Source: Paraspadella gotoi (lineage: Eukaryota > Animalia > Chaetognatha). Taken from it: a stretch of 64,000 nucleotides of DNA. Where the stretch lies: NCBI GenBank assembly GCA_051294375.1, contig CM119267.1:24501783-24565782 (forward strand). Reading direction: 5' to 3'. Positions 1,303-63,452 of the stretch are shown one piece after another. The notes below the pieces were generated by a model, which saw only the letters and a program-made list of their open reading frames with translations, was not told the origin of the DNA and searched no databases. Within the stretch, counting starts at the first letter, position 1. Every line of letters starts with the position of its first letter. Both the position numbers and the translations under genes were made by a program.

Positions 1303-8933
<7,631 letters not shown>

Positions 8934-13970: not shown

Positions 13971-14008
<38 letters not shown>

Positions 14009-17000
14009 NNNNNNNNNNNNNNNNNNNNNNNNNAGAGAGAGAGAGAGAGAGAGAGAAGAGAGAGAGAGATGAGAGAGAGAGAGAGAATGAGGGGCATAGT
14101 CAATAAAATTTCCCAACTCCCCCTGCCCCTTCCCTCCTCCTCCTCCTCCTCCTCCAGGCCTCCTCATGATCGGCGTCGTCTTCGTCTCTTGCGTCGTGGG
14201 CGTCGACCCCGACAACGTGGCCACGCCCATCGCCGCCGCTTTGGAGATTTGACGACGCTCGCCATCTGGCCGAAGTGGCGAGGAGATTTTGGGAGAAGAG
14301 GAGAGGTTAAGCGTGGGGGGGAATGGGGAGGAGAGAGAGAATAGAGGGGGAGGATAGGGAGAGGATGAGGGGAGGAGATGTGGGGAGGATAGGAAGAAGG
14401 GAGGATAGAGATGAAGGGGAGTATAGGGAGAGAGGAGGGGAGGATTGGGAGAAAAGGAGGGGGAAGCAATGAGGGGGATGATAGGGGGAAGAAATATAGA
14501 AGAGGAGGATTGGGAAGTCAGAGAAGAAGAGAAAGGTTAGAAAGGAGAGAGGAAGTATTTAGGAGGGAGGAGCAAGAGGAAGAGGAAGAGGAAGATGAGT
14601 TAAGGAGAGGAAGAAGAGAGACACGCACTGCATCGGAATCCTTTTAGGATTTCCTGAAGGCGGCGCTAGCAGTCACTTAGATTTGAAGTTTTTTCTGTCT
14701 AACAAATGAGCAACCAACTACAAGCAAATTTTATACATTTTTAACGTAAGTGGGACAGACCGACGGGACTGCGACCGGGACAGACCGACGGACTGACGAC
14801 GGACAGACCGACGGACAGACCGACGGACGGACCGACGGACGGACCGACGGACAGACCGACGGACGACCGACGGACTGACGAGGACTGACCGACGGACAGA
14901 CCGACGGACTGACCGACGGACGGACCGACAGAAAAGTGACTTATAGAGTTGCTCCGCGAGTATTCGCGGCGCAACTAATAATAGGTAAATAAAGGAGATA
15001 AGAATTTAGTTCCTCTCCTCCTTTTCCCTCCCTCTCCATCTCTCACTCCCCTCTCTCTATCCCCCCTCTCTGCTCCTCTCTCACTCCCTCTCTGGCTCCC
15101 ATCCCTCCAGTCCTCCTTTTCAGCGCCATCTTGCTCCTCTTCCTCTTCCTCCTCGTGGCGCCCATCTGCGTGCCATCTGTCGTCGCAATCATTGGTGGCG
15201 CGATTTTGGCCTCCGGGTGGGCGCCGGTCATCAGCGCAATGGGCATCAGCAGCTTGGGAGGTGAAGGGACTTGAGTTTTCGTTGGACGATCGATCGACAA
15301 AAGAATTGATTGATGGAATTCGAGTTACAAGCGAACTGATGATGTTTCAGACTATCTTTCAGACTATCTGTCAGATGGTATTTTGACTGTCTGTTAGACG
15401 ATCTGTTAGACAGTCTGTCAGATTATCTGTTAAATTATCTGTTAAACTATCTGTCAGACTGTCTGTCAGACGGTTTTTTTACCGTCTATTAGACGTCTGT
15501 GAGACAGTCAGATTATCTGTTAAATTATCTGTTAGACTGTCTTTCAGATGGTCTTTCAGACGGTCTGTTAGATGGTCTGTTAGACGGTCTGTTAGATGGG
15601 CTGTTAGACAGTCTATCAGATTATCTGTTAAATTATCTGTGCAGACTATCTGTTAGGACTATCTGTTAGAATATCTATCAGGCTGTCGACAGTTAAATCG
15701 AACGATTCACTTGTTATTATGAAATTTTGGATCACGAGGATTTTTCTCCATCAATCAATCACACCCGCTTAACCGAAAAACCCTTCAACCAATCAACATT
15801 CAACCCATCAATCGTTGAACTACTAAACCAATCAATCGTTCAACCAATCATATTCTTCATCCAATCAGGTTTGATTCTCAACCGCGTCGTCCCATCTACT
15901 CGAGCATCGCCGCTTTTCAACCAATTATCAAACGCGTCGGGGAAACCCTCGTCGGGTCATGGCGTCCAGGTTACGGGGGGGGCTTGGCGTCGGTGTTGGG
16001 GCTTTTGGAAATGATGATCGTCACTTTGTTGGTCAAATATCGTCACTCGTAAAAATTGTCATATTGACGTTCTACCTTTTTTCGTTGGTTTGAAAATTGA
16101 GATGAAATTTTTTTCTTTTGTTTTCACAACGAAATATTCCACTGATAAAAGTCTGATAATAATCCAAATCCCTAATCCAAAAAACTTTTTCACTAACCCT
16201 AACTATTTTTACCAAATCTATAACCTAATCCCGAACCCCTATCCTAAACCCCTAAACCTAATTTCTTAACTTAAAAAACTGAATTCAAGCTTAAATGAGG
16301 CACTTTTGGTAAATATGGCCCCACGATATTTCCTTCCCCTCGAGATCTCCACGGATCTCCATCGCGAGAAGAAAACTTCAGATGATGAAGAGGAGGAGGA
16401 ATACTCCTCCCCTTCTTCCTCTTTCCTCCGTCCCTTCCTCTCCGCCTTTCTCGGTTCCTCCGTCACTCCCTCTGCGCACGCGTTCTCCTCGCTCTCGTCC
16501 TCCCGCGGTAAAGTTTCGATAGAGTGATACCGTGATGCAGAAGCGATTACGGTATCTTGATACTCTCCATTTTTTATTCATTGATCTTGGAAATCTTTTG
16601 CAATTTTGTCCTATATTTCTGTTTTAATGTATTTATTATAATTTATTATATTATAATTTATTATAATTTAGGTCATCTCCTCTTTCTCTTCGCCCTCATC
16701 TCTTTCAACGCGAATGAACGAATTTTAAACTTTGCGTTTCTCTTCGCTTATTTGATGCGGCGCACGTGCAGGTAATAAGATGATGTTACGTGTGAGAACG
16801 TGCGTTTGTATGCGTGTGCATGCGGGATCTGTGTTGGCTTCGTGTTCCTTTGTTTGCGGGTACGCTCGTGAGCCTTTATACGTGCCTTAATTTGGATTCA
16901 TTGCCTTTAGCTGCCTTTGTTTTACCGCGTTAACTAGCGAACAGACTTGATAATGGAAGATCAAAAAGTTTATATTCTTGTTTAAAAATCCGTCATTAGA

Positions 17001-17439
17001 CCCGTTAAATATTTATAAAACTATTATTTTATGCCTTTAATTTATGAAAAATTGCAAAATTATAACTATGTATACTTTCTTTTTGTCACCTTTTCATAAG
17101 GGATCCAAATATGTTAGAAAATTTTAACACTTGATTTTAAAGTGTTGACTATTTATTATAGTAGCACTATAATTACTACTTGTTTTATTAAAAAGATATC
17201 TTTAAGATTCATATATTTTATTCTCATCATGCTACTTCATTCCTCACCCCGTCTCTCCTTCTCCCAGGTTGTTCTTTTGTTGACGATCGCCCTCTGGCTC
17301 GTGCGGTGGCTCTGGCGGCGCGGCATCGATCCGGACGACGCCGCCATCCCTTATTTGACGTCATTGGGCGACCTCTTTGGGACGGCGTGTTGGCGGCGGC
17401 GTTCGTTGCGCTCGACGCCGTGGTGTCGCTGTGAGTTGA
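10238..17439 (+). CDS. SLC41A: SLC41 family (MgtE-like) Mg2+ transporter, 10 exons: 10238-10274, 10581-10742, 10814-10926, 13074-13254, 14158-14305, 15124-15260, 15869-15969, ~16344-16508, 16672-16771, 17268-17439
   Basis: Signature motifs [80 protein letters not shown]; GT-AG sites; exons 5-10 carry scattered indels that differ between the two duplicate copies. Confidence 0.92.
14650..14978 (-). mobile_element. HINE/DINE-1-like element, family B (also ~19730-20062 and a fuller copy at ~42390-42640)
   Basis: Minus strand: agttgcgccgcg hairpin, ctataagtcac core, GTCG/GTCY microsatellite; matching subTIR gttgcgccgc at ~42415. Confidence 0.6.
15345..15690. repeat. 12-bp intronic minisatellite (ctgttagactat-like); duplicate at ~20435-20790
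   Basis: Directly visible periodicity. Confidence 0.8.
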
Positions 17440-19231
17440 TCTCGAACAAAAGAGCATCGATGATCGATCGATTCGGCGACGAAGGATCGACGGATAGAAA
17501 AGAAAATATCATCGTTTGAATATATTAAGAATAATTAGTAATTTTCACTGTTCAGCGCTAAATTAAAACAATTATGGGAATCTACATTTTATTTATTTGA
17601 ACATAGTAATTTTATAATCTACCTAAGCTACTTACCAACATTGTATTATTACATAAATAAAACCGAAGTGCCCTCATATAATTTTCTGTTTGTTTACATT
17701 ATTTTTTATTAACCCCTTTTTTCCTCGGTTATGACATACAAGCCCTCGATTGATTTGCTGTTTATTGCGAATATACCACTAAGTCTTGTAATTGTTTGAT
17801 TATTTATATCATCACAAAAGAAACCCCTTAAATTTAATGATAATTAGGTGACAAATTAAAAAAGTTAGTTTGTGGTCACGTGATGAGAAATTATAATTCG
17901 GACAGAAATCATCATCACGCGGAACGTAAATAGTCTAATTAACCAAATATAAATAACTTTATGCTGTAGAGAATGAATCTTTCAGTCCTAAGGAGGTTGT
18001 ATTATGTAATAAAACTTATTTGTAACCTCTAAAAAAACTATAATTGCCAACAAATTACATCATTTCTATATCTTTACATGTATGTTTTCCATCATGGTAC
18101 AAGAAAAACCCTCGGCTCAGCCACTTGGGGAGACGAAAAGCACAATACTATAAAAAGTAGGGTTTAAGACGACGTGCGAACCACGGCTTTCCTTGCTAAC
18201 CACCGATTTTACCAACATGTCAATAAGCTCTGCGTAAACAAATTGACGTTTTAATTGACATATTATGAAATACCATAATTTAATCAATAACAAAAAACGC
18301 TGGCTCAGGTTCTGGGACTCTTTGATGGTACACCGCTTTCCCTTTCCAATCCCACGCAACTTTCTGTCGAACCGTTCATCCTGGAAAGCGTTAAGGCGCC
18401 CTCGCGGTTAATTGTTTCGACAGAGATGTGTGGAAACATCGCTGCGAACGATTCTTATCGATGAGCCGCCAGATGGAATCGCGTCTCATCGACGTTTGGA
18501 CGGCGGCGGATATCTCCGATGGTGGCGGAGGATTCCGGGGTGGGATTGGCAACCCTCCATGCCTGGCCACGCTCTCCCATGAAGGCTGGGATCACAGCCG
18601 GGGAGCCAACTCCCGCCGAGGGAGAATATCTCTTAAATGAGAGAGTCAATTTACGGACCGGCATAAAACTCGTACTGTGTAAAAGAAAAAATATAAAATG
18701 AAATCTAATATATTGAATATAATAAATTAATTTATCTCAATTGTACTGATTGCTAAATTTCTTAATGAAAAGTTCAGACGCGAGAGCTTTGAAATATCCT
18801 ACTAAGTATCTTTTATATCTTATCAATTTGTCTAGCTCACTTTCATAATATCTAATTATTATCTATCTCTCCTTTTTGTATATTATTATATGATTACTCA
18901 ACACGTTACAAATTTTCAATTTTGCACTATGATATATTACAGCAAATTGAAACTGATTATAAATATAATAATATTGTTGTTGAAACGAATAAAGTAATAA
19001 ACCGGAAAGTCAAATGTTTTTTTTTTATCATTAAATAGCTGATAATAATTTGATTTTGCACCAATTGATAAAACATAGCAATTAATATTATTTTAATAAA
19101 GGTACCAAAGCAGTGAAGGTTTTCTTTGTTTGTTTTTTTTTGCATTAATGAGGGATAGATTCTACCGCAAATTTGGTTTCGTACTTTTTGCGTACCCTGC
19201 CCCTTCCTCCTCCTCCTCCTCCTCCCTCCAG

Positions 19232-22200
19232 GCCTCCTCATGATCGGCGTCGTCTTCGTCTCTCGCGTCGTCGGCGTCGACCCCGACAACGTGGCCACGC
19301 CCATCGCCGCCGCTTTGGGAGATTTGACGACGCTCGGCCATCTGGCCGAAGTGGCGAGGAGATTTTTGGGAGAAGAGGAGAGGTTAAGCGTGGGGGGGAA
19401 TGGGGAGGAGAGAGAGAATAGAGGGGGAGGATAGGGAGAGGATGAGGGGAGGAGATGTGGGGAGGATAGGAAGAAGGGAGGATAGAGATGAAGGGGAGTA
19501 TAGGGAGAGAGGAGGGGAGGATTGGGAGAAAAGGAGGGGGAAGCAATGAGGGGGATGATAGGGGGAAGAAATATAGAAGAGGAGGATTGGGAAGTCAGAG
19601 AGAAGAGAAAGGTTAGAAAGGAGAGAGGGAAGTATTTAGGAGGGAGGAGCAAGAGGGAAGAGGAAGAGGAAGATGAGTTAAGGAGGAAGGAAGAAGAGAG
19701 ACACGCACTGCATCGGAATCCTTTTAGGATTTCCTGAAGGCGGCGCTAGCAGTCACTTAGATTTGAAGTTTTTTCTGTCTTAACAAATGAGCAACCAACT
19801 ACAAGCAAATTTTATACATTTTTAACGTAAGTGGGACAGACCGACGGACTGACCGACGGACAGACCGACGGACTGACCGACGGACAGACCGACGGACAGA
19901 CCGACGGACGGACCGACGGACGGACCGACGGACAGACCGACGGACTGACCGACGGACTGACCGATGGACTGACCGACGGACAGACCGACGGACTGACCGA
20001 CGGACGGACCGACAGAAAAGTGACTTATAGAGTTGCTCCGCGAGTATTCGCGGCGCAACTAATAATAGGTAAATAAAGGAGATAAGAATTTAGTTCCTCT
20101 CCTCCTTTTCCCCTCCCTCTCCATCTCTCACTCCCCTCTCTCTATCCCCCCTCTCTGCTCCTCTCTCACTCCCTCTCTGGCTCCCATCCCTCCAGTCCTC
20201 CTTTTCAGCGCCATCTTGCCTCCTCTTCCTCTTCCTCCTCGTGGCGCCCATCTGCGTCGCCATCTGTCGTCGCAATCCATTGGTGGCGCCGATTTTGGCC
20301 TCCGGGTGGACGCCGGTCATCAGCGCAATGGGCATCAGCAGCTTGGGAGGTGAAGGGACTTGAGTTTTCGTTGGACGATCGATCGACAAAAGAATTGATT
20401 GATGGATTCGAGTTACAAGCGAAACTGATGATGTTTCAGACTATCTTTCAGACTATCTTTTCAGACTATCTGTCAGATGGTATTTTGACTGTCTGTTAGA
20501 CGATCTGTTAGACAGTCTGTCAGATTATCTGTTAAATTATCTGTTAAACTATCTGTCAGACTGTCTGTCAGACGGTTTTTTTACCGTCTATTAGACGTCT
20601 GTGAGACAGTCAGATTATCTGTTAAATTATCTGTTCAGACTGTCTTTCAGATGGTCTTTCAGACGGTCTGTTAGATGGTCCTGTTAGACGGTCTGTTAGA
20701 TGGGCTGTTAGACAGTCTATCAGATTATCTGTTAAATTATCTGTGAGACTATCTGTTAGACTATCTGTTAGAATATCTATCAGGCTGTCGACAGTTAAAT
20801 CGAACGATTCACTTGTTATTATGAAATTTTGGATCACGAGGATTTTTCTCCATCAATCAATCACACCCGCTTAACCGAAAAAACCCTTCAACCAATCAAC
20901 ATTCAACCCATCAATCGTTGAACTACTAAACCAATCAAATCGTTCAACCAATCATATTCTTCATCCAATCAGGTTTGATTCTCAACGCGTCGTTCCCATC
21001 TACTCGAGCATCGCCGCTTTTCAACCAATTATCAACGGCGTCGGGGGAAACCTCGTCGGCGTCATGGCGTCCAGGTTACGAGGGGGGGCTTGGCGTCGGT
21101 GTTTGGGGCTTTGGAAATGATGATCGTCACTTTGTTGGTCAAATATCGTCACTCGTAATAAATTGTCATATTGACGTTCTACCTTTTTTCGTTGGTTTGA
21201 AAATTGAGATGAAATTTTTTTCTTTTGTTTTCACAACGAAATATTCCACTGATAAAAGTCTGATAATAATCCAAATCCCTAATCCAAAAACTTTTTCACT
21301 AACCCTAATATTTTACCAAATCTATAACCCTAATCCCGAACCCCTATCCTAAACCCCTAACCTAATTTCTTAACTTAAAAAACTGAATTCAAGCTTAAAT
21401 GAGGCACTTTTGGTAAATATGGCCCACGATATTTCCTTCCCCTCAGAATCTCCACGGATCTCCATCGCGAGAAGAAAACTTCAGATGATGAAGAGGAGGA
21501 GGAATACTCCTCCCCTTCTTCCTCTTTCCTCCGTCCCTTCCTCTCCGCCTTTCTCGGTTCCTCCCGTCACTCCCTCTGCGCACGCGTTCTCCTCGCTCTC
21601 GTCCTCCCGGGTAAAGTTTCGATAGAGTGATACCGTGATGCAGAAGCGATTACGGTATCTTGATACTCTCCATTTTTTATTCATTGATCTTGGAAATCTT
21701 TTGCAATTTTTGTCCTATATTTCTGTTTTAATGTATTTATTATAATTTATTATATTATAATTTATTATAATTTAGGTCATCTCCTCTTTCTCTTCGCCCT
21801 TCATCTTTTCAACGCGAATGAACGAAATTTAAACTTTGCGTTTCTCTTCGCTTATTTGATGGCGGCGCACGTGCAGGTAATAAGATGATGTTACGTGTGA
21901 GAACGTGCGTTTGTATGCGTGTGCATGCGGGGATCTGTGTTGGCCTTCGTGTTCCTTTGTTTGCGGGTACGCTCGTGAGCCTTTATACGTGCCTTAATTT
22001 GGATTCATTTGCCTTTAGCTGCCTTTGTTTTACCGCGTTAACTAGCGAACAGACTTGATAATGGAAGATCAAAAAAGTTTATATTCTTGTTTAAAAAATC
22101 CGTCATTAGACCCGTTAAATATTTATAAAACTATTATTTTATGCCTTTAATTTATGAAAAATTGCAAAATTATAACTATGTATACTTTCTTTTGTCACCT

Positions 22201-24749: not shown

Positions 24750-56347
<31,598 letters not shown>

Positions 56348-56562: not shown

Positions 56563-58440
56563 TTTGGCAGCTCAAATTATTTGAACAAAGACGATGACGA
56601 CGACGAATACAACGATGAAGACAACAACGAAGTCTTTGTACTTTGTGACCCGTAGTATCGTAGTGGTCAATAAGAATGACCTGTTCTTACCCGAACATAA
56701 ATGACTTTGTTATGGCTGACCTTTTTCAGTCAATGTAAATACTAGTTGTTGTTGTTGTTGTTATTTTTATCGGTTTTGCTTTTTACTCTGTTTTTGATAA
56801 TACATGTTTTTTCTTTATCATGAAAAACAATTGGTATTGCTCGACGTTTCTTTTGGACATTCTTAACTATTGTGCAACCTTCTAGACATTTTTTCCTTGT
56901 TATCGTCGTTTTTAGTTTCATTTGTTTTCAAACGTATAATCAATCCAAAGATAGAGTACATCAGTCCACGCCCCCGCAACGATTCTGCGCCAAGCCTCTC
57001 ATTGTCATTGAGTCAGAGGTGGCGACCCATCACCCCGAGATTCGTCAAACCCTTGGCAGACATCTCTTTTCACCCAAATCCGCGCCGACAGTGATTCAAC
57101 CAACGCCCGCATCGACGAACTCAGAGGCCTTGTCCTCTCGTTGCAGTCAACTCTCGACGCCGCTCTGGCCGAGTTATCGAGACCTTCAGAGACGCGAACG
57201 GAAACCGAGATGCAGCAGCAGTTCTCAATATTCTTATTTTATCTGGACCCACGCATCTCTACAAAGACTTACTTTTCTTTCGCTAATGCTGCTAATCTGT
57301 TTAATATTCGTTTTGTATCAATTTTGTCTTTGTTGATTCATTTGAATAATTTTTGTACATTTTGTCACATGTATATTTATATACATAGAATACACTTTAT
57401 TTCATTTTTAAAACTTTTGTTTAATTTGTTTCGTCCTATAGCGATCTTAGTTAGTTGAAAGTTCAGATAAAGTTCATTACCAGATGGGCTTGATTTAATA
57501 AAAAAACGTGTTGGAATACTATTAAAGTGGGCTATAATTAAGTTAGCTTCTTTAAGCATATGAACATTTTTTTATGCTATGGTCAGCAAAAAAGTCCTAC
57601 TTGAATATGCAAATGTCAATAATCAGTACAAATAAAAAAAAATCAACGGGAATAGATCCAATGCAGTGACTCAAATGAGAATTTTGAGAAAAATTTGAGG
57701 CGTGTTTTTCATGTATTATCAAAAACAGAGTATAAAGCAAAAACGATAAAAATAACAACAAAACAACTAGTGTTTACATTGACTGAAAAAGGTCAGCCCT
57801 AACAAGGTCATTTATGTTCGGGTAAGAACAGGTCATTCTTATTGACCTCTACAATACTACGGGTCACAAAGTACAAAAGAATTTGTCGTCATCTTCGTCG
57901 TTGTATTCGTCTTCGTCATCGTCTTTGTTCAAATATTTGAGCTGCCAAATATCCCCCCCAAGCGCTGTTGTCGACTTGGCTGATGTCAGGGATGACAGGT
58001 CGTGCTCAAAATTCTTTGTCGATCGGCTCCAATGTTGCCAGGAGTGGTAGGCGCTTGCAGCGGCAACGCTGATGTCGCATCCGGCGCCAGACGCGGGTTG
58101 GGCGTAAGCTCGGGGTGATCCGCTGCGGCAGGAGACAAAGGTTGACGAGAAGAGTCGCTAAGGTATGATGGTGGAAGTCGTGGAGTTCCAAAGTAGGGAC
58201 GAGGCTGGCACTTGAAATCCTCACTCTCTTGCCTGCGTCTGAGGGCCCTGCTGCTGGCATCTCGGTTTCCGTTCGCGTCTCTGAAGGTCTCGATAAAACT
58301 CTGCCAGCGGCGTCGAGAGTTGACTGCAACGAGGAGGACCAAGGCCTTCTGAGTCGTCGATGCGGGGCGTTGTTGAATCACTGTCGGCAGCGGATTTGGG
58401 TTGAAAAGAGATGTCTGCCAGGGTTTGACGAATCTCGGGG
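56563..58440. mobile_element. Two opposed partial copies of a probable short non-autonomous LTR element
   Basis: Inverted pairs 56563-56806/57710-57949 and 57033-57218/58250-58440; on the minus copy a PPT-like gggggggata directly precedes the shared block. Confidence 0.45.
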
Positions 58441-58527: not shown

Positions 58528-58931
58528 TTTTAGTCAGATCTGCTTTCAGCAGATCCCGACTCTATAATTCACTTGGCTGCTAGAGGAGGTTATAAAAGTT
58601 ACGGATAGTCATCTGCAGACCACTTAGCGCCTTATCCAATTAATTATCTAATTAATTAAACGATAAATTAATCAATCAATTTATTTAGTTATCTATTAAT
58701 TAATTATTTAATCAAGTCAATCGTTATTGGTATTATTGTCGTCATCGCCATCATCGTCGTCGTTGCTTTTGTCGTGGTCAGTGATAAAAAGACCTAAAAA
58801 TAAAGATTTCGGATCAAATTAATTAATTTATTAATAAAATTATTGTTTTAGTTTATATAGTTTGTATTACTTAATTAATTAATTACCGCTAATGATCGTC
58901 GGCAGATCCGACATTGTTTGCTCAAACTTTT
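58528..58931 (+). mobile_element. Short HINE family A copy
   Basis: Same termini as 4556-7306. Confidence 0.65.
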
Positions 58932-59290
58932 TTAAACTCCAATTTATGTTTGGGATAACATACAATAAAATCACCAAGAAATTCAACAATTGTTTAAACG
59001 TAATCCAGCATGTCATTCATTAGTTTTGAAAACACATTCATTGGTTTTAGTTTGTCATCGCGTTCAAATAAAAATCTTCGAAGCTTAATTTCACATCTTT
59101 TTTTCCATATTTTTCGGCCTGAGGGATTTTAATATGTGAGAGGGGATCCCTTACAGGGCAAAATGACGGCGTTTTGGTTCTGCATTTTTTCTCCAGCGTC
59201 CACTGCGAGCCATTGCAACAATTTTTACTAAACAAAACCATAGAAAGTAACAAAAAATAAACAGGTTCAAGTCTTGAACCCTAAAGTTCC

Positions 59291-59502
59291 TGTTATGGTG
59301 GACTAAAATCCACCATCCGTTCATCAGCGGCCATTGGTGCCGGAGGCAAGTCATTCGCCTCCCAACCCAAAGGTCCGAGGTTCTAGCCCGGTGGTCGCCT
59401 GTCAGTTAAGAGGGACGGGGCGCTTAACCCGCCTGTAACATGGTGTTACAGCCTGATCCGAAGCTCAGGGACTGCTTACATTGAGCGGTTCTGTCACTAA
59501 CA
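59291..59502 (+). mobile_element. LTR-like solo element, family 3 (tRNA-Gly-like head plus twister-like motif)
   Basis: TGTTA...TAACA termini (no TSD seen); ~150 nt homologous to the family-1 LTR; cattggtg...attcgcctccca...ggttc..cccgg resembles tRNA-Gly(CCC). Confidence 0.6.
59403..59474 (+). ncRNA. Candidate circularly permuted (type-P5-like) twister ribozyme, most intact copy
   Basis: P5 CAGU/ACUG; P2' G(A)GG; GA; T1' CGG; P1 G-U closed by GCGC; UAA; P2 CCC; T2 GC; P3 CUGUAAC/GUUACAG; P4 CCUGA/UCAGG with loop U-CCG-AA-GC. Confidence 0.65.
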
Positions 59503-59562
59503 CATAAAAATAATTAGTGTCTCTTCACTGTTCAGTAATCAATCATAGGTAAAGATAGCCAA

Positions 59563-61453: not shown

Positions 61454-62441
61454 TGTAGCGGTAGTATTTCATACCCTGCTACTCGTCCCAGAATCAGCAG
61501 CACCTATAGCGCCAGAGGTAGCACAAGCTCCTCCCAACCCAAAGGTCTCGGGTTCGTGCCCTGCTGATTCACACAAGTAAAAGTGGGATGGGGCGTCTAA
61601 ACCACCTGTAGTGACGGACTGCAGCCTGATCCGAAGTTCGGGACCTTGTGTGCAACGGATGGTGAACTGCTCGCGACATTGTCTTCCACATTGGTGAGCC
61701 CACACGAACACCCTGGTACGTTAATACACCTCTGCTCTTGACCATCGTGTGTGAAGATGGGAGCAAGAATAGGCAGCCCCTCCTAGAGTGCTCGGGCACA
61801 ATGTGTGCATCATAGCCATCACACTTGCGTGGGAGTGTGATGCCTAGAGGGGATGTGTAGTGGTAGTATTTCATACCCTGCTACTCGTCCAAAAATCAGC
61901 AGCACTTATGGCGCCGGAGGTAGCACGAGCTTCTCCCAACCCAAAAGGACTCGGGTTCGCGCCCTGCTGATTCACACAAGTAAAAGCGGGACGGGGCGTC
62001 TAACCCACCTGAAGTGACGAACTACAGCCCGATCCAAAGTTCGGGACCTTGTGTGCAATGGATGGTGAACTGCTCGCGGCATCGTCTTCCACATTAGTGA
62101 GCCCACACAAACATGTTAGTTCACCTCTGCCCTCGACTTCATGTGTGCAGACGGGAGCCGGAATAGGCAGCCCCTCCTAGAGTGCTCGAGCACAACTCGT
62201 GCATCATAGCCATCAAACTTGCGCGGGTGTGTGATGCCTAAGGGGGGGATGTGTCGCAGTAGTATTTCATACCCTGCTACTCTGCCGCAGGTAGCACGAG
62301 CTCCTCCCAACCCAAAGGACTCGGGTTCGCGCCCTGCTGATTCACACAAGTAAAAGCGGGATGGGGCGTCTATCCCACCTGAAGGGACAAACTACCTTGT
62401 GTGCAACGCACGGTGAACTGCTCGCGGCATCGTCTTCCACA
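61454..62441 (+). mobile_element. Tandem TRIM / retrozyme-like mini LTR retrotransposon: LTR1 61454-61690, LTR2 61856-62093, LTR3 62252-62441 (internally deleted), two ~160-bp internal domains
   Basis: LTRs TGTAG...CCACA; PBS-like TGGTGAGCCCA 1 nt after LTR1; PPTs agagggga / aaggggggga before LTR2 and LTR3; no coding capacity. Confidence 0.8.
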
Positions 62442-63217: not shown

Positions 63218-63452
63218 TGTGGAAGACAATGCCACGAGCAGTTCACCATCCGTTGCACACAAGATCCCGAACTTCGGATCGGGCTGTAGTCCGTCACTAC
63301 TGGTGGGTTAGAAGACCCGTCGCGCTCTCTTGTGTGAATCAGCAGGGCACGAACCAGAGACCTTTGGGTTAAGAGGAGCTCGTGCTAGCTCCGGAGCCAT
63401 AGGTGCTGCTGATTCCTGGACGAGTAACGGGGAATGAAATACTACCGCTTCA
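63218..63452 (-). mobile_element. Solo LTR of family 1
   Basis: Full-length reverse complement of 61454-61690; flanks tctt/tctc. Confidence 0.8.

What the first reader, a model, noticed from the sequence alone, without database searches (positions are those of the whole stretch)
59403..59474. Naturally minimal permuted twister-like motif with co-variation across three repeat families
Five copies (59403-59474+, 61570-61652+, 61973-62055+, 63256-63336-, 41281-41353+) plus a degenerate one (28542-28620-) share the order P5-P2'-GA-NNN-6nt-UAA-3nt-T2-P3-P4(U-NNN-AA-GY)-P5'. Compensatory changes seen: T1 CCG/CGG vs UCC/GGA; T2 GC/GC vs AC/GU; first P2 pair C-G vs A-U with a variable bulged base; single-pair P1 as G-C, G-U, U-G or C-G closed by 4 nt; P3, P4 and P5 differ in sequence but pair. 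Known: twister has a U^A-A cleavage loop, a conserved G-A before T1, two pseudoknots and P1/P3/P5 permutations, and engineered mini-twisters tolerate a shortened P1. A natural 1-bp-P1, bulged-P2 form could be missed by standard models (inference).
Basis: partly seen in the sequence, partly recalled or inferred. Interest (0 to 1): 0.85.

Follow-up and report, generated by a model that had tools for sequence, protein, structure and literature searches.

The report
Twister ribozyme in animal mini-LTR retroelements
A shrunken twister-like RNA fold, predicted to cut itself, sits behind a tRNA-type promoter sequence in the end repeats of a tiny gene-less jumping element in a likely animal genome, and it would cut the element's RNA into unit-length pieces that likely close into circles, a design my literature searches found described only in plants and only with a different ribozyme.

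Summary
The motif is real. All six copies are where stated. A structural descriptor finds five with at most one broken pair; shuffles give 0.03. Both pseudoknots, P1, P2 and P4 change on both sides, and in reads the family-majority letters pair where the window's copies are decayed. It keeps the twister catalytic core but has a 1-bp P1 and a bulged 3-bp P2, and stays below Rfam's cut-off.

Families A and B lie in ~235-bp LTR-like units with tRNA-type A and B boxes. Family B forms LTR-internal-LTR-internal-LTR with TG..CA ends, purine tracts and a PBS-like site, and its LTR is 17-32 times deeper in X1 reads than its internal part. A has a 4-bp target duplication. This fits the Helenus TRIMs, for which no ribozyme is reported.

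Best reading: an animal LTR retrozyme that uses a twister variant. Inferred: a Pol III transcript is cut in both LTRs to a 403-nt monomer, circularised and copied by a borrowed LTR reverse transcriptase. Cleavage, transcription and circles are untested, and family C's host is unresolved.

The parts
59403..59474 (+). Twister-like motif, family A (core 59410-59469; predicted cut U59425/A59426); all core pairs intact
59294..59527 (+). Family A LTR-like unit (solo), collinear with the family B LTR; flanked by CTGT at 59290-59293 and 59528-59531 (4-bp target duplication)
   Evidence: (loose ends pile up at 59293/59294 and 59527 in all four runs)
59335..59389 (+). tRNA-type A box (59335-59346) and B box (59379-59389) of family A
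   Evidence: box motifs as given in PMC10886601 section 3.5
61454..61690 (+). Family B LTR 1 (TG..CA, 237 bp): A box 61507, B box 61551, twister-like motif 61570-61652, predicted cut 61598/61599
   Evidence: (loose ends at 61454 in X1 and X2, at 61690 in X2)
61691..61855 (+). Internal part 1 (165 bp): PBS-like site starting TGG at 61692, purine tract 61846-61853
61771..61784 (+). Internal segment predicted to pair with the 5' half of the ribozyme (61988-62001) in the circular monomer; duplex energy mostly not beyond shuffles
61856..62093 (+). Family B LTR 2: A box 61909, B box 61954, twister-like motif 61973-62055, predicted cut 62001/62002
62094..62251 (+). Internal part 2 (158 bp; 137 of 156 aligned bases as part 1): PBS-like site reading TAG in place of TGG, purine tract 62240-62249
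62252..62441 (+). Family B LTR 3 with two deletions; broken ribozyme remnant 62356-62412 (P4 lost, TAA changed)
61599..62001 (+). Predicted 403-nt cut-to-cut monomer RNA (inferred); no run of four or more T in these LTRs or internal parts
63218..63452 (-). Family B solo LTR with twister-like motif 63256-63336; flanks GAGA / AAGA (3 of 4)
41182..41354 (+). Family C copy: tRNA-like head (A box 41226) and twister-like motif 41281-41353 (core intact, P5 not paired); a T6 run follows
28522..28762 (-). Family C copy, truncated at about 28522: tRNA-like head (A box 28700) and decayed motif 28542-28620 (G-G in place of G-A, one T2 pair broken)
6641..6757 (+). Ribozyme-less relative of family B: tRNA-like head, T6 run, an end in TACA, then the same PBS-like site

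Best explanation
The motif is a twister-like fold of the P5 permutation, predicted to self-cleave at U^A-A, inside the LTR of a gene-less, tRNA-headed miniature LTR element (Helenus-like TRIM), and it would turn the element's transcript into a unit-length, likely circular template. Shown by sequence and reads: the fold with two pseudoknots and two-sided changes; for family B the layout LTR-internal-LTR with TG..CA ends, purine tract and PBS-like site; sharp shared ends and a large excess of LTR over internal sequence; A and B boxes upstream of the ribozyme; no oligo-T terminator inside the unit. Inferred, in order: (1) RNA polymerase III starts at the tRNA-like head in the 5' LTR and, lacking a T run, reads through to the next LTR. 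(2) The fold forms during transcription, the G of G-A acts as base and the A after the cut as acid, as in known twisters, and each LTR is cut. [quoted passage not shown] (4) In the circle an internal segment may pair with the 5' half of the ribozyme and keep it off. (5) A tRNA primes at the PBS-like site, and the reverse transcriptase and integrase of an autonomous Gypsy-type element copy and insert solo, single or tandem forms. This is the plant LTR-retrozyme cycle with twister in place of hammerhead and a built-in promoter. The LTR reading is good for B, extends to A by homology and its target duplication, and is not shown for C.
For: Fold: 107 of 114 cells paired, 9 of 19 pairs change on both sides, covariation score 0.512 against 0.234 for shuffles (0 of 500 as high) and at most 0.161 for slid controls. 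Rfam Twister-P5 aligns to 41289-41352. Reads of family B: majority letters at 61589, 61601, 61621 and 61627 (96-99% in X1) give Watson-Crick pairs where the window copy has a wobble or mismatch. Reads of family C: 99% have G-A and 87% the paired T2 base where 28542 is decayed, the bulged base varies, and none of the 40 rows shown of 42 falls in P4/L4 or in T1-P1-UAA. Element: loose ends at 59293/59294, 59527, 61454 and 61690; summed depth in X1 about 3.8e6 on A, 2.2-2.6e5 on the B LTR, 0.8-1.3e4 on the B internal part and 160-790 on flanks (an index, not a copy number). CTGT duplication at A, purine tracts before LTR 2 and LTR 3, A and B boxes. No ORF of 120 aa or more in these units. No T4 in A or B units, but T6 after the head in the ribozyme-less relative at 6641. 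P5 forms in the nascent RNA (0.94-1.0) and not in the modelled circle (0.0). Precedent for the cycle: PMC4918200 Discussion; for the element: PMC10886601.
Against: No cleavage, transcription or circle was observed. P2 has 3 pairs and a bulge where twisters have 4, and a review reports the suggestion that changing P2 length may disturb the active site; the innermost P4 pair, called essentially invariant G-C, is A-U in A and B (PMC5408937 section 11). Folding z-scores are weak (-0.35 for A, -0.08 and +1.03 for C, about -2 for B, pseudoknots not counted). Covariation comes from six related sequences in about two lineages, and reads were laid at 80% likeness, which favours conservation. In family C reads 6.5% have an A at the first T2 base with no partner change listed. 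The PBS-like site starts TGG in 1 of 3 window copies and TAG in 2, and its tRNA is not identified. Target duplications are exact in 1 of 3 units with both ends (A 4/4, solo B 3/4, B array 1/4). A starts TA, not TG, and no internal part was seen for it. LTR 1 and LTR 2 differ at 21 of 236 bases, so the array is old or a mosaic. The sequestering duplex was matched by 192 and 235 of 1000 shuffles (27 of 1000 in the best of six comparisons), and the circle's fold by 6 of 100.
Confidence: 0.55

Rival explanations
1. The ribozyme is active but serves as a 3'-end former in place of the missing oligo-T terminator. Cutting in the 5' LTR is slow or blocked, so a linear RNA keeps a ~90-nt terminal repeat and is reverse-transcribed by ordinary strand transfer, with no circle.
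For: The ribozyme sits where the relative at 6641 and many published Helenus LTRs (supplement parts 1 and 7, by eye) have a T run. The weak P1 and bulged P2 could slow cleavage. Tandem arrays also occur in a Helenus family for which no ribozyme is reported (LTR-11_DR).
Against: Both LTRs carry the same complete fold downstream of the promoter boxes, and the 5' copy is predicted to form P5 as soon as it is made, so selective sparing needs an extra assumption.
Confidence: 0.2
2. These are tRNA-headed SINE-like or Penelope/Naiad-derived non-LTR elements that carry a twister variant. The tandem array arises as in animal non-LTR retrozymes, and the LTR marks are incidental. This is most plausible for family C, which could also be the donor that inserted into an ancestral TRIM.
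For: Animal retrozymes are reported as tandem, non-LTR and Penelope-related (PMC7761336; bioRxiv 10.64898/2026.07.22.740005). Unchecked notes of this scan report P5 twisters with reduced P1 in Naiad repeats. Family C showed no LTR boundaries, PBS or internal part, and continues into other tails. The PBS is imperfect.
Against: Naiad insertions are described as heavily 5'-truncated (PMC8557442), whereas A and B have sharp shared ends on both sides. B has a separate low-depth internal part bounded by a PBS-like site and a purine tract, and A has a 4-bp duplication.
Confidence: 0.13
3. The fold is an inherited twister relic or a non-cleaving structure; the shortened P2 and A-U closing pair have silenced it, and it spreads as a passenger of the element.
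For: Below Rfam's cut-off. It departs from the 4-bp P2 and the invariant G-C pair. Five of the seven window copies have a broken core.
Against: The catalytic letters and both pseudoknots are kept with two-sided changes across lineages whose LTR-like units are otherwise far apart. Family-majority letters pair. Natural twisters tolerated P1 and P2 imperfections.
Confidence: 0.12

Closest known systems
Twister ribozyme, type P5 (Rfam RF02684, clan CL00120)
   Same: Order of elements, G-A before T1, U^A-A, 3-bp T1, 2-bp T2 between P2 and P3, P4 loop U-NNN-A-A-NN.
   Different: P1 is one pair closing 4 nt (Rfam model: 3 pairs and a long loop); P2 is 3 pairs plus a bulge (model: 4); innermost P4 pair A-U in A and B; 17.6 bits at best against a cut-off of 37.6.
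Helenus / TRIMp3 (Kojima 2024, PMC10886601; parts 1-4 of 6 and supplement parts 1, 7, 10 of 11 read)
   Same: Gene-less unit of about 640 bp, TG..CA LTRs with tRNA-type A and B boxes, purine tract, PBS-like site, 4-bp duplication as in animal families, solo LTR excess, tandem arrays.
   Different: A twister-like fold follows the head and no T run is present. The paper's main text has no mention of twister, and 17 short motif searches of its consensus file showed no twister context in the places displayed (13 of 19 places shown for one motif).
Plant LTR retrozymes (Cervera et al. 2016, PMC4918200; passages and Discussion read)
   Same: Ribozyme in each LTR of a non-coding TRIM-like element, 4-bp duplication, solo and tandem forms, cut-to-cut monomer without R region; ribozyme predicted to be paired away in the circle.
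   Different: They carry type III hammerheads, occur in plants, have monomers of about 700 nt, and were described as seeming to lack a promoter (PMC7761336; a later abstract, PMC9695139, seen only in listings, reports an LTR promoter in N. benthamiana). Their circles are shown; here they are inferred.
Schistosoma T-variant twisters of Perere-3 (PMC8501958, passages)
   Same: Natural twisters with reduced or absent P1 on a retroelement.
   Different: Type-P1 form at the 5' end of an autonomous non-LTR element, with P1 completed by flanking DNA; here a closed P5-type hairpin inside an LTR.
Animal non-LTR retrozymes (PMC7761336 and bioRxiv 10.64898/2026.07.22.740005, passages)
   Same: Short tandem units with one ribozyme each, in animal genomes.
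   Different: They carry type I hammerheads, lack LTR, PBS and PPT, and are tied to Penelope-like elements.

Membership tests
Twister ribozyme type P5 (RF02684) | Permuted order P5-P2-GA-T1-P1-UAA-P2-T2-P3-P4-P5 | tested here: met
   P5 unpaired in copy 41281
Twister ribozyme type P5 (RF02684) | Catalytic G of G-A and U^A-A | tested here: met
   The G and UAA are in 6 of 6 copies, G-A in 5 of 6; 99% of family C reads have G-A
Twister ribozyme type P5 (RF02684) | Two pseudoknots T1 (3 bp) and T2 (2 bp) | tested here: met
   T1 17 of 18 cells and T2 11 of 12 cells paired; 3 of these 5 pairs change on both sides
Twister ribozyme type P5 (RF02684) | P2 of four Watson-Crick pairs | tested here: not met
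   3 pairs and one variable bulged base in all copies
Twister ribozyme type P5 (RF02684) | P1 of two or more pairs | tested here: not met
   one pair in 6 of 6; P1 is reported dispensable
Twister ribozyme type P5 (RF02684) | Innermost P4 pair G-C | tested here: inconclusive
   G-C in 2 of 6 (family C), A-U in 4 of 6
Twister ribozyme type P5 (RF02684) | Rfam gathering score 37.6 bits | tested here: not met
   17.6 bits for 41281; no twister match for 59403 or the whole window. Filed as a twister-like variant, not as an RF02684 member
Twister ribozyme type P5 (RF02684) | Site-specific self-cleavage | not testable with these tools
   needs an in vitro assay or RNA reads
Helenus (TRIMp3) | Two LTRs around a short non-coding internal part, 311-1263 bp | tested here: met
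   family B: 237 + 165 + 238 bp, no ORF of 120 aa or more; not shown for A or C
Helenus (TRIMp3) | tRNA-type A and B boxes in the LTR | tested here: met
   ARAGORN finds no tRNA; the B box is degenerate in family C
Helenus (TRIMp3) | Polypurine tract before the 3' LTR | tested here: met
   2 of 2 internal parts, 8 and 10 purines, each 2 nt before the TG
Helenus (TRIMp3) | PBS complementary to a host tRNA | tested here: inconclusive
   TGG in 1 of 3 copies. By eye, 9 of the first 10 bases of copy 1 pair with the bee tRNA-Trp end in Fig. S2; the 8-mer TGAGCCCA also occurs at the start of fungal Helenus internal parts. Host tRNAs not available
Helenus (TRIMp3) | 4-bp target duplication (animal families) | tested here: inconclusive
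   A 4/4, solo B 3/4, B array 1/4; loose-end cells on both sides of A mostly read ATA(T/G), at only 0.40-0.47 agreement
Helenus (TRIMp3) | Pol III transcription and Gypsy partner | not testable with these tools
   no genome held; no RNA data
LTR retrozyme (plant type) | Self-cleaving ribozyme in each LTR | tested here: inconclusive
   fold present in LTR 1 and LTR 2; cleavage untested
LTR retrozyme (plant type) | Type III hammerhead | tested here: not met
   no hammerhead match in the window at E <= 5; the motif is twister-like
LTR retrozyme (plant type) | Circular cut-to-cut RNA | not testable with these tools
   only contigs could be laid
Animal non-LTR retrozyme | Type I hammerhead; no LTR, PBS or PPT | tested here: not met

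The most novel reading that the evidence does not exclude
An animal lineage has LTR retrozymes built independently of the plant ones: a Pol III-driven TRIM swapped its oligo-T terminator for a minimal twister ribozyme, propagates through ~400-nt RNA circles in which an internal segment switches the ribozyme off, and has left many thousands of LTR copies. Such twisters, invisible to Rfam, would be a large uncounted class with a defined job.
Probability: 0.4. Interest if true: 0.8.

Novelty: new variant of a known kind. Interest (0 to 1): 0.63.

Why it matters
The papers I read divide retrozymes into plant LTR elements with type III hammerheads and animal non-LTR repeats with type I hammerheads. 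A twister-bearing, tRNA-headed LTR element in an animal would break that split. It would show that the ribozyme class is interchangeable and that the circle route to LTR-type reverse transcription arose more than once. It also gives eukaryotic twisters, whose roles are mostly unknown, a concrete job that is cheap to test: a 70-nt cleavage assay, and a northern or divergent RT-PCR for a ~400-nt circle. A natural 1-bp P1 with a bulged 3-bp P2 directly tests the suggestion that P2 length is fixed, and it shows how high-copy ribozymes escape the standard model.

Tried and rejected
No whole genome is held, so no genome-wide alignment, host tRNA list or Gypsy partner search was possible.

Sequencing runs: no RNA holder listed. 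Run X9 is only guessed to be RNA and covers flanking DNA like the DNA runs; I drew nothing on expression from it.

Pattern scans for the variant elsewhere: viral contigs 1, 16, 0 and 0 loci, metagenomes 0 and 10, prokaryote genomes 5. None of the 32 loci met P1, P2 and P4 pairing together, and model R1 found 0 matches at E <= 0.01 in them. These are exact patterns for a few T1 variants in mostly non-animal collections, so they say little about distribution.

One search counted pairs on alignment A3, where the two family C rows were two columns out of register (83.3% paired). It is superseded on A4. One search timed out and was rewritten.

I first took TGTCCACA near 28489 as the LTR end of the 28542 copy; reads show the family diverging from the window at about 28522-28530, so I rejected that and leave family C's host open. 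A 5-bp duplication for A was rejected because read ends place the start at 59294. An alternative 4-bp P2 in copy 61570 is not supported: 99% of X1 depth has another base at 61584.

The sequestering duplex and the stability of the circle were not clearly beyond shuffles and are kept only as leads.

The supplement of PMC11662667 could not be read, so I could not check whether similar sequences were assayed there; its text says it covers type-P1 forms. Roth et al. 2014 and the mini-twister paper were not read; I rely on PMC5408937. Look-ups of earlier scan notes by sequence, by place and by three word sets returned nothing.

Full report
Observation. The six motifs are at the stated places. I wrote a descriptor from them (G-A, three T1 bases, one pair around 4 nt, TAA, 3-nt P2 strand, T2, spacer, P4 with U-NNN-A-A-NN). 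It finds 41288-41352 and 59410-59468 with no broken pair; 61583, 61986 and 63267 with one; and 28549 with two, together with two AT-rich chance matches. In 500 local dinucleotide shuffles the mean counts were 0.002, 0.032 and 0.39. The descriptor is post hoc, so this shows non-randomness rather than function. On an in-register alignment, 107 of 114 cells pair, 9 of 19 pairs change on both sides, and the covariation score is 0.512 against 0.234 for shuffles and at most 0.161 for slid controls. The six rows are related: A and B share 70.6% over 119 nt, so the changes amount to a few events between about two deep lineages. A model built from the six finds a seventh, broken copy at 62356-62412 and one weak candidate at 39261-39307.

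What the motif is. Rfam gives no twister in the whole window or at 59403, but in a local scan aligns Twister-P5 to 41289-41352 at 17.6 bits, cut-off 37.6. Against the structural account in PMC5408937 (passages and section 11) the copies keep U^A-A, G-A, the 3-bp T1, the 2-bp T2 between P2 and P3, and the P4 loop. They depart in a 1-bp P1, a 3-bp P2 with a bulge, and an A-U innermost P4 pair in A and B. In natural type-P1 twisters, P1 and P2 imperfections did not lower cleavage while pseudoknot mismatches did (PMC11662667, section 32), and natural P1-poor forms exist (PMC8501958, passages). So it probably works like a twister, but I do not file it as an RF02684 member.

Reads. Four coded runs from three studies, all contigs, were laid. 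In family B, 96-99% of X1 depth has letters at 61589, 61601, 61621 and 61627 that give Watson-Crick pairs in T1, P2, P3 and P4, where copy 61570 has a wobble or mismatch. None of the 40 rows shown of 173 falls in A's core. In family C, 99% have G-A and 87% the pairing T2 base where 28542 is decayed; the bulged base varies; P2 varies towards wobbles (20% and 5%); and none of the 40 rows shown of 42 lies in P4/L4 or T1-P1-UAA. Against this, 6.5% have an unpaired A in T2, and laying at 80% likeness favours conserved reads.

The host element. Every copy lies behind a tRNA-like head. Family B reads LTR (61454-61690), internal part (165 bp), LTR (61856-62093), internal part (158 bp), deleted LTR (62252-62441), with a solo LTR at 63218-63452. 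The LTRs start TG and end CA, a purine tract lies 2 nt before each downstream LTR, and a PBS-like site follows each LTR end. Read ends pile up at 61454 and 61690, and in X1 the summed depth is 2.2-2.6e5 on the LTR, 0.8-1.3e4 on the internal part and about 160 on the nearest flank. The tool warns that this is no copy number, but the 17- to 32-fold ratio is what an excess of solo LTRs gives. Family A spans 59294-59527 by read ends, reaches about 3.8e6, is collinear with the B LTR and is flanked by CTGT on both sides. Weak points: the PBS-like site has TGG in 1 of 3 copies and its tRNA is unidentified; duplications are exact in 1 of 3 units; A starts TA and showed no internal part; LTR 1 and LTR 2 differ at 21 of 236 bases. 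Family C has a head and the ribozyme, but its ends, PBS and internal part were not established. The host is taken to be an animal by inference from short exon-like ankyrin and MgtE pieces and an RT fragment in microsatellite-rich DNA.

Mechanism. No A or B unit holds four T in a row, while a relative at 6641-6757 has the same head, a T6 run, a TACA end and the same PBS-like site but no ribozyme. I infer that Pol III reads from the head through both LTRs and that the fold cuts at 61598/61599 and 62001/62002. The 403-nt product has no terminal repeat. For plant retrozymes this same problem led to the model of a ligated circle as template, giving solo, single and multimeric insertions (PMC4918200 Discussion). 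In my folding, P5 forms in the nascent RNA (0.94-1.0), whereas in the circle 61988-62001 pairs with 61771-61784 (0.88-0.99 at all but one base) and P5 and P2 vanish. That duplex is mostly not beyond shuffles (192 and 235 of 1000; 27 of 1000 in the best of six comparisons), so it is a lead only. All of these steps are inference. I put the whole chain at 0.55, a terminator-like role with a linear template at 0.2, a non-LTR origin at 0.13 and an inactive relic at 0.12.

Comparison with what is known. The element fits Helenus (PMC10886601; parts 1-4 of 6 and supplement parts 1, 7 and 10 of 11 read). That paper's main text does not mention twister, and 17 short motif searches of its consensus file showed no twister context in the places displayed (line breaks can hide motifs, and 13 of 19 places were shown for one). 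Animal retrozymes are described as non-LTR with type I hammerheads (PMC7761336 and bioRxiv 10.64898/2026.07.22.740005, passages). Naiad elements lack canonical hammerheads and are 5'-truncated (PMC8557442, passages). PMC6765202 and PMC10085705 (passages) added background only. Ten searches of the held library listed no paper whose title or abstract start places a twister in an LTR or TRIM. Three searches matched more papers than were listed (25 of 168, 15 of 21, 20 of 599), and subscription journals are largely missing. Unchecked notes of this scan report similar P5 variants in other animal repeats and ribozyme-less Helenus; none shown combined the two.

Verdict. The minimal fold alone is a moderate novelty. 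Its place in the LTR of a tRNA-headed animal TRIM is the surprising part and is directly testable. New variant of a known kind; interest 0.63.

Noticed in passing
window 6641-6757 (+): Ribozyme-less relative of family B: tRNA-like head, T6 run, TACA end and PBS-like site. It could be the ancestral Helenus layout or a deletion derivative.
   Followed up: partly
window 39261-39307 (+): Weak decayed candidate (13.2 bits, rough E 0.12) with a further T1 variant (UGG/CCA) and a P1 loop like family C's; no head seen upstream.
   Followed up: partly
window 58555-58630 (+): Fragment resembling the downstream tail into which most family C reads continue, preceded by a hairpin at about 58533-58560.
   Followed up: partly
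window 28552-28562 (-) and 41339-41349 (+): In family C the P4 hairpin itself reads like a B box (GGTTC..), and read depth on this part is several times that on the rest of the motif.
   Followed up: no
window 59322-59402, 61492-61571: The heads of A and B are closed by a stem of 8-12 predicted pairs with different sequences in the two families; ARAGORN calls no tRNA.
   Followed up: partly
window 56635-56750 and 57762-57877: 116-nt inverted repeat, 96% complementary, 1011 nt apart; a piece inside it recurs inverted near 58255-58440. MITE-like.
   Followed up: no
window 50740-54160: Tandem satellite with a ~65-bp unit and many small indels.
   Followed up: no
window 43847-44389 (-): Reverse transcriptase fragment (Pfam RVT_1, E 1e-15); LINE-like by my recall, not an LTR-type partner.
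   Followed up: partly
window 55979-56113 (-) and 17280-17420 (+): Exon-like pieces with ankyrin repeats (TRP-channel-like by recall) and an MgtE/SLC41 domain.
   Followed up: partly
window about 14000-15700 and 19000-20800: Duplicated segment holding two different 12-bp tandem arrays.
   Followed up: no
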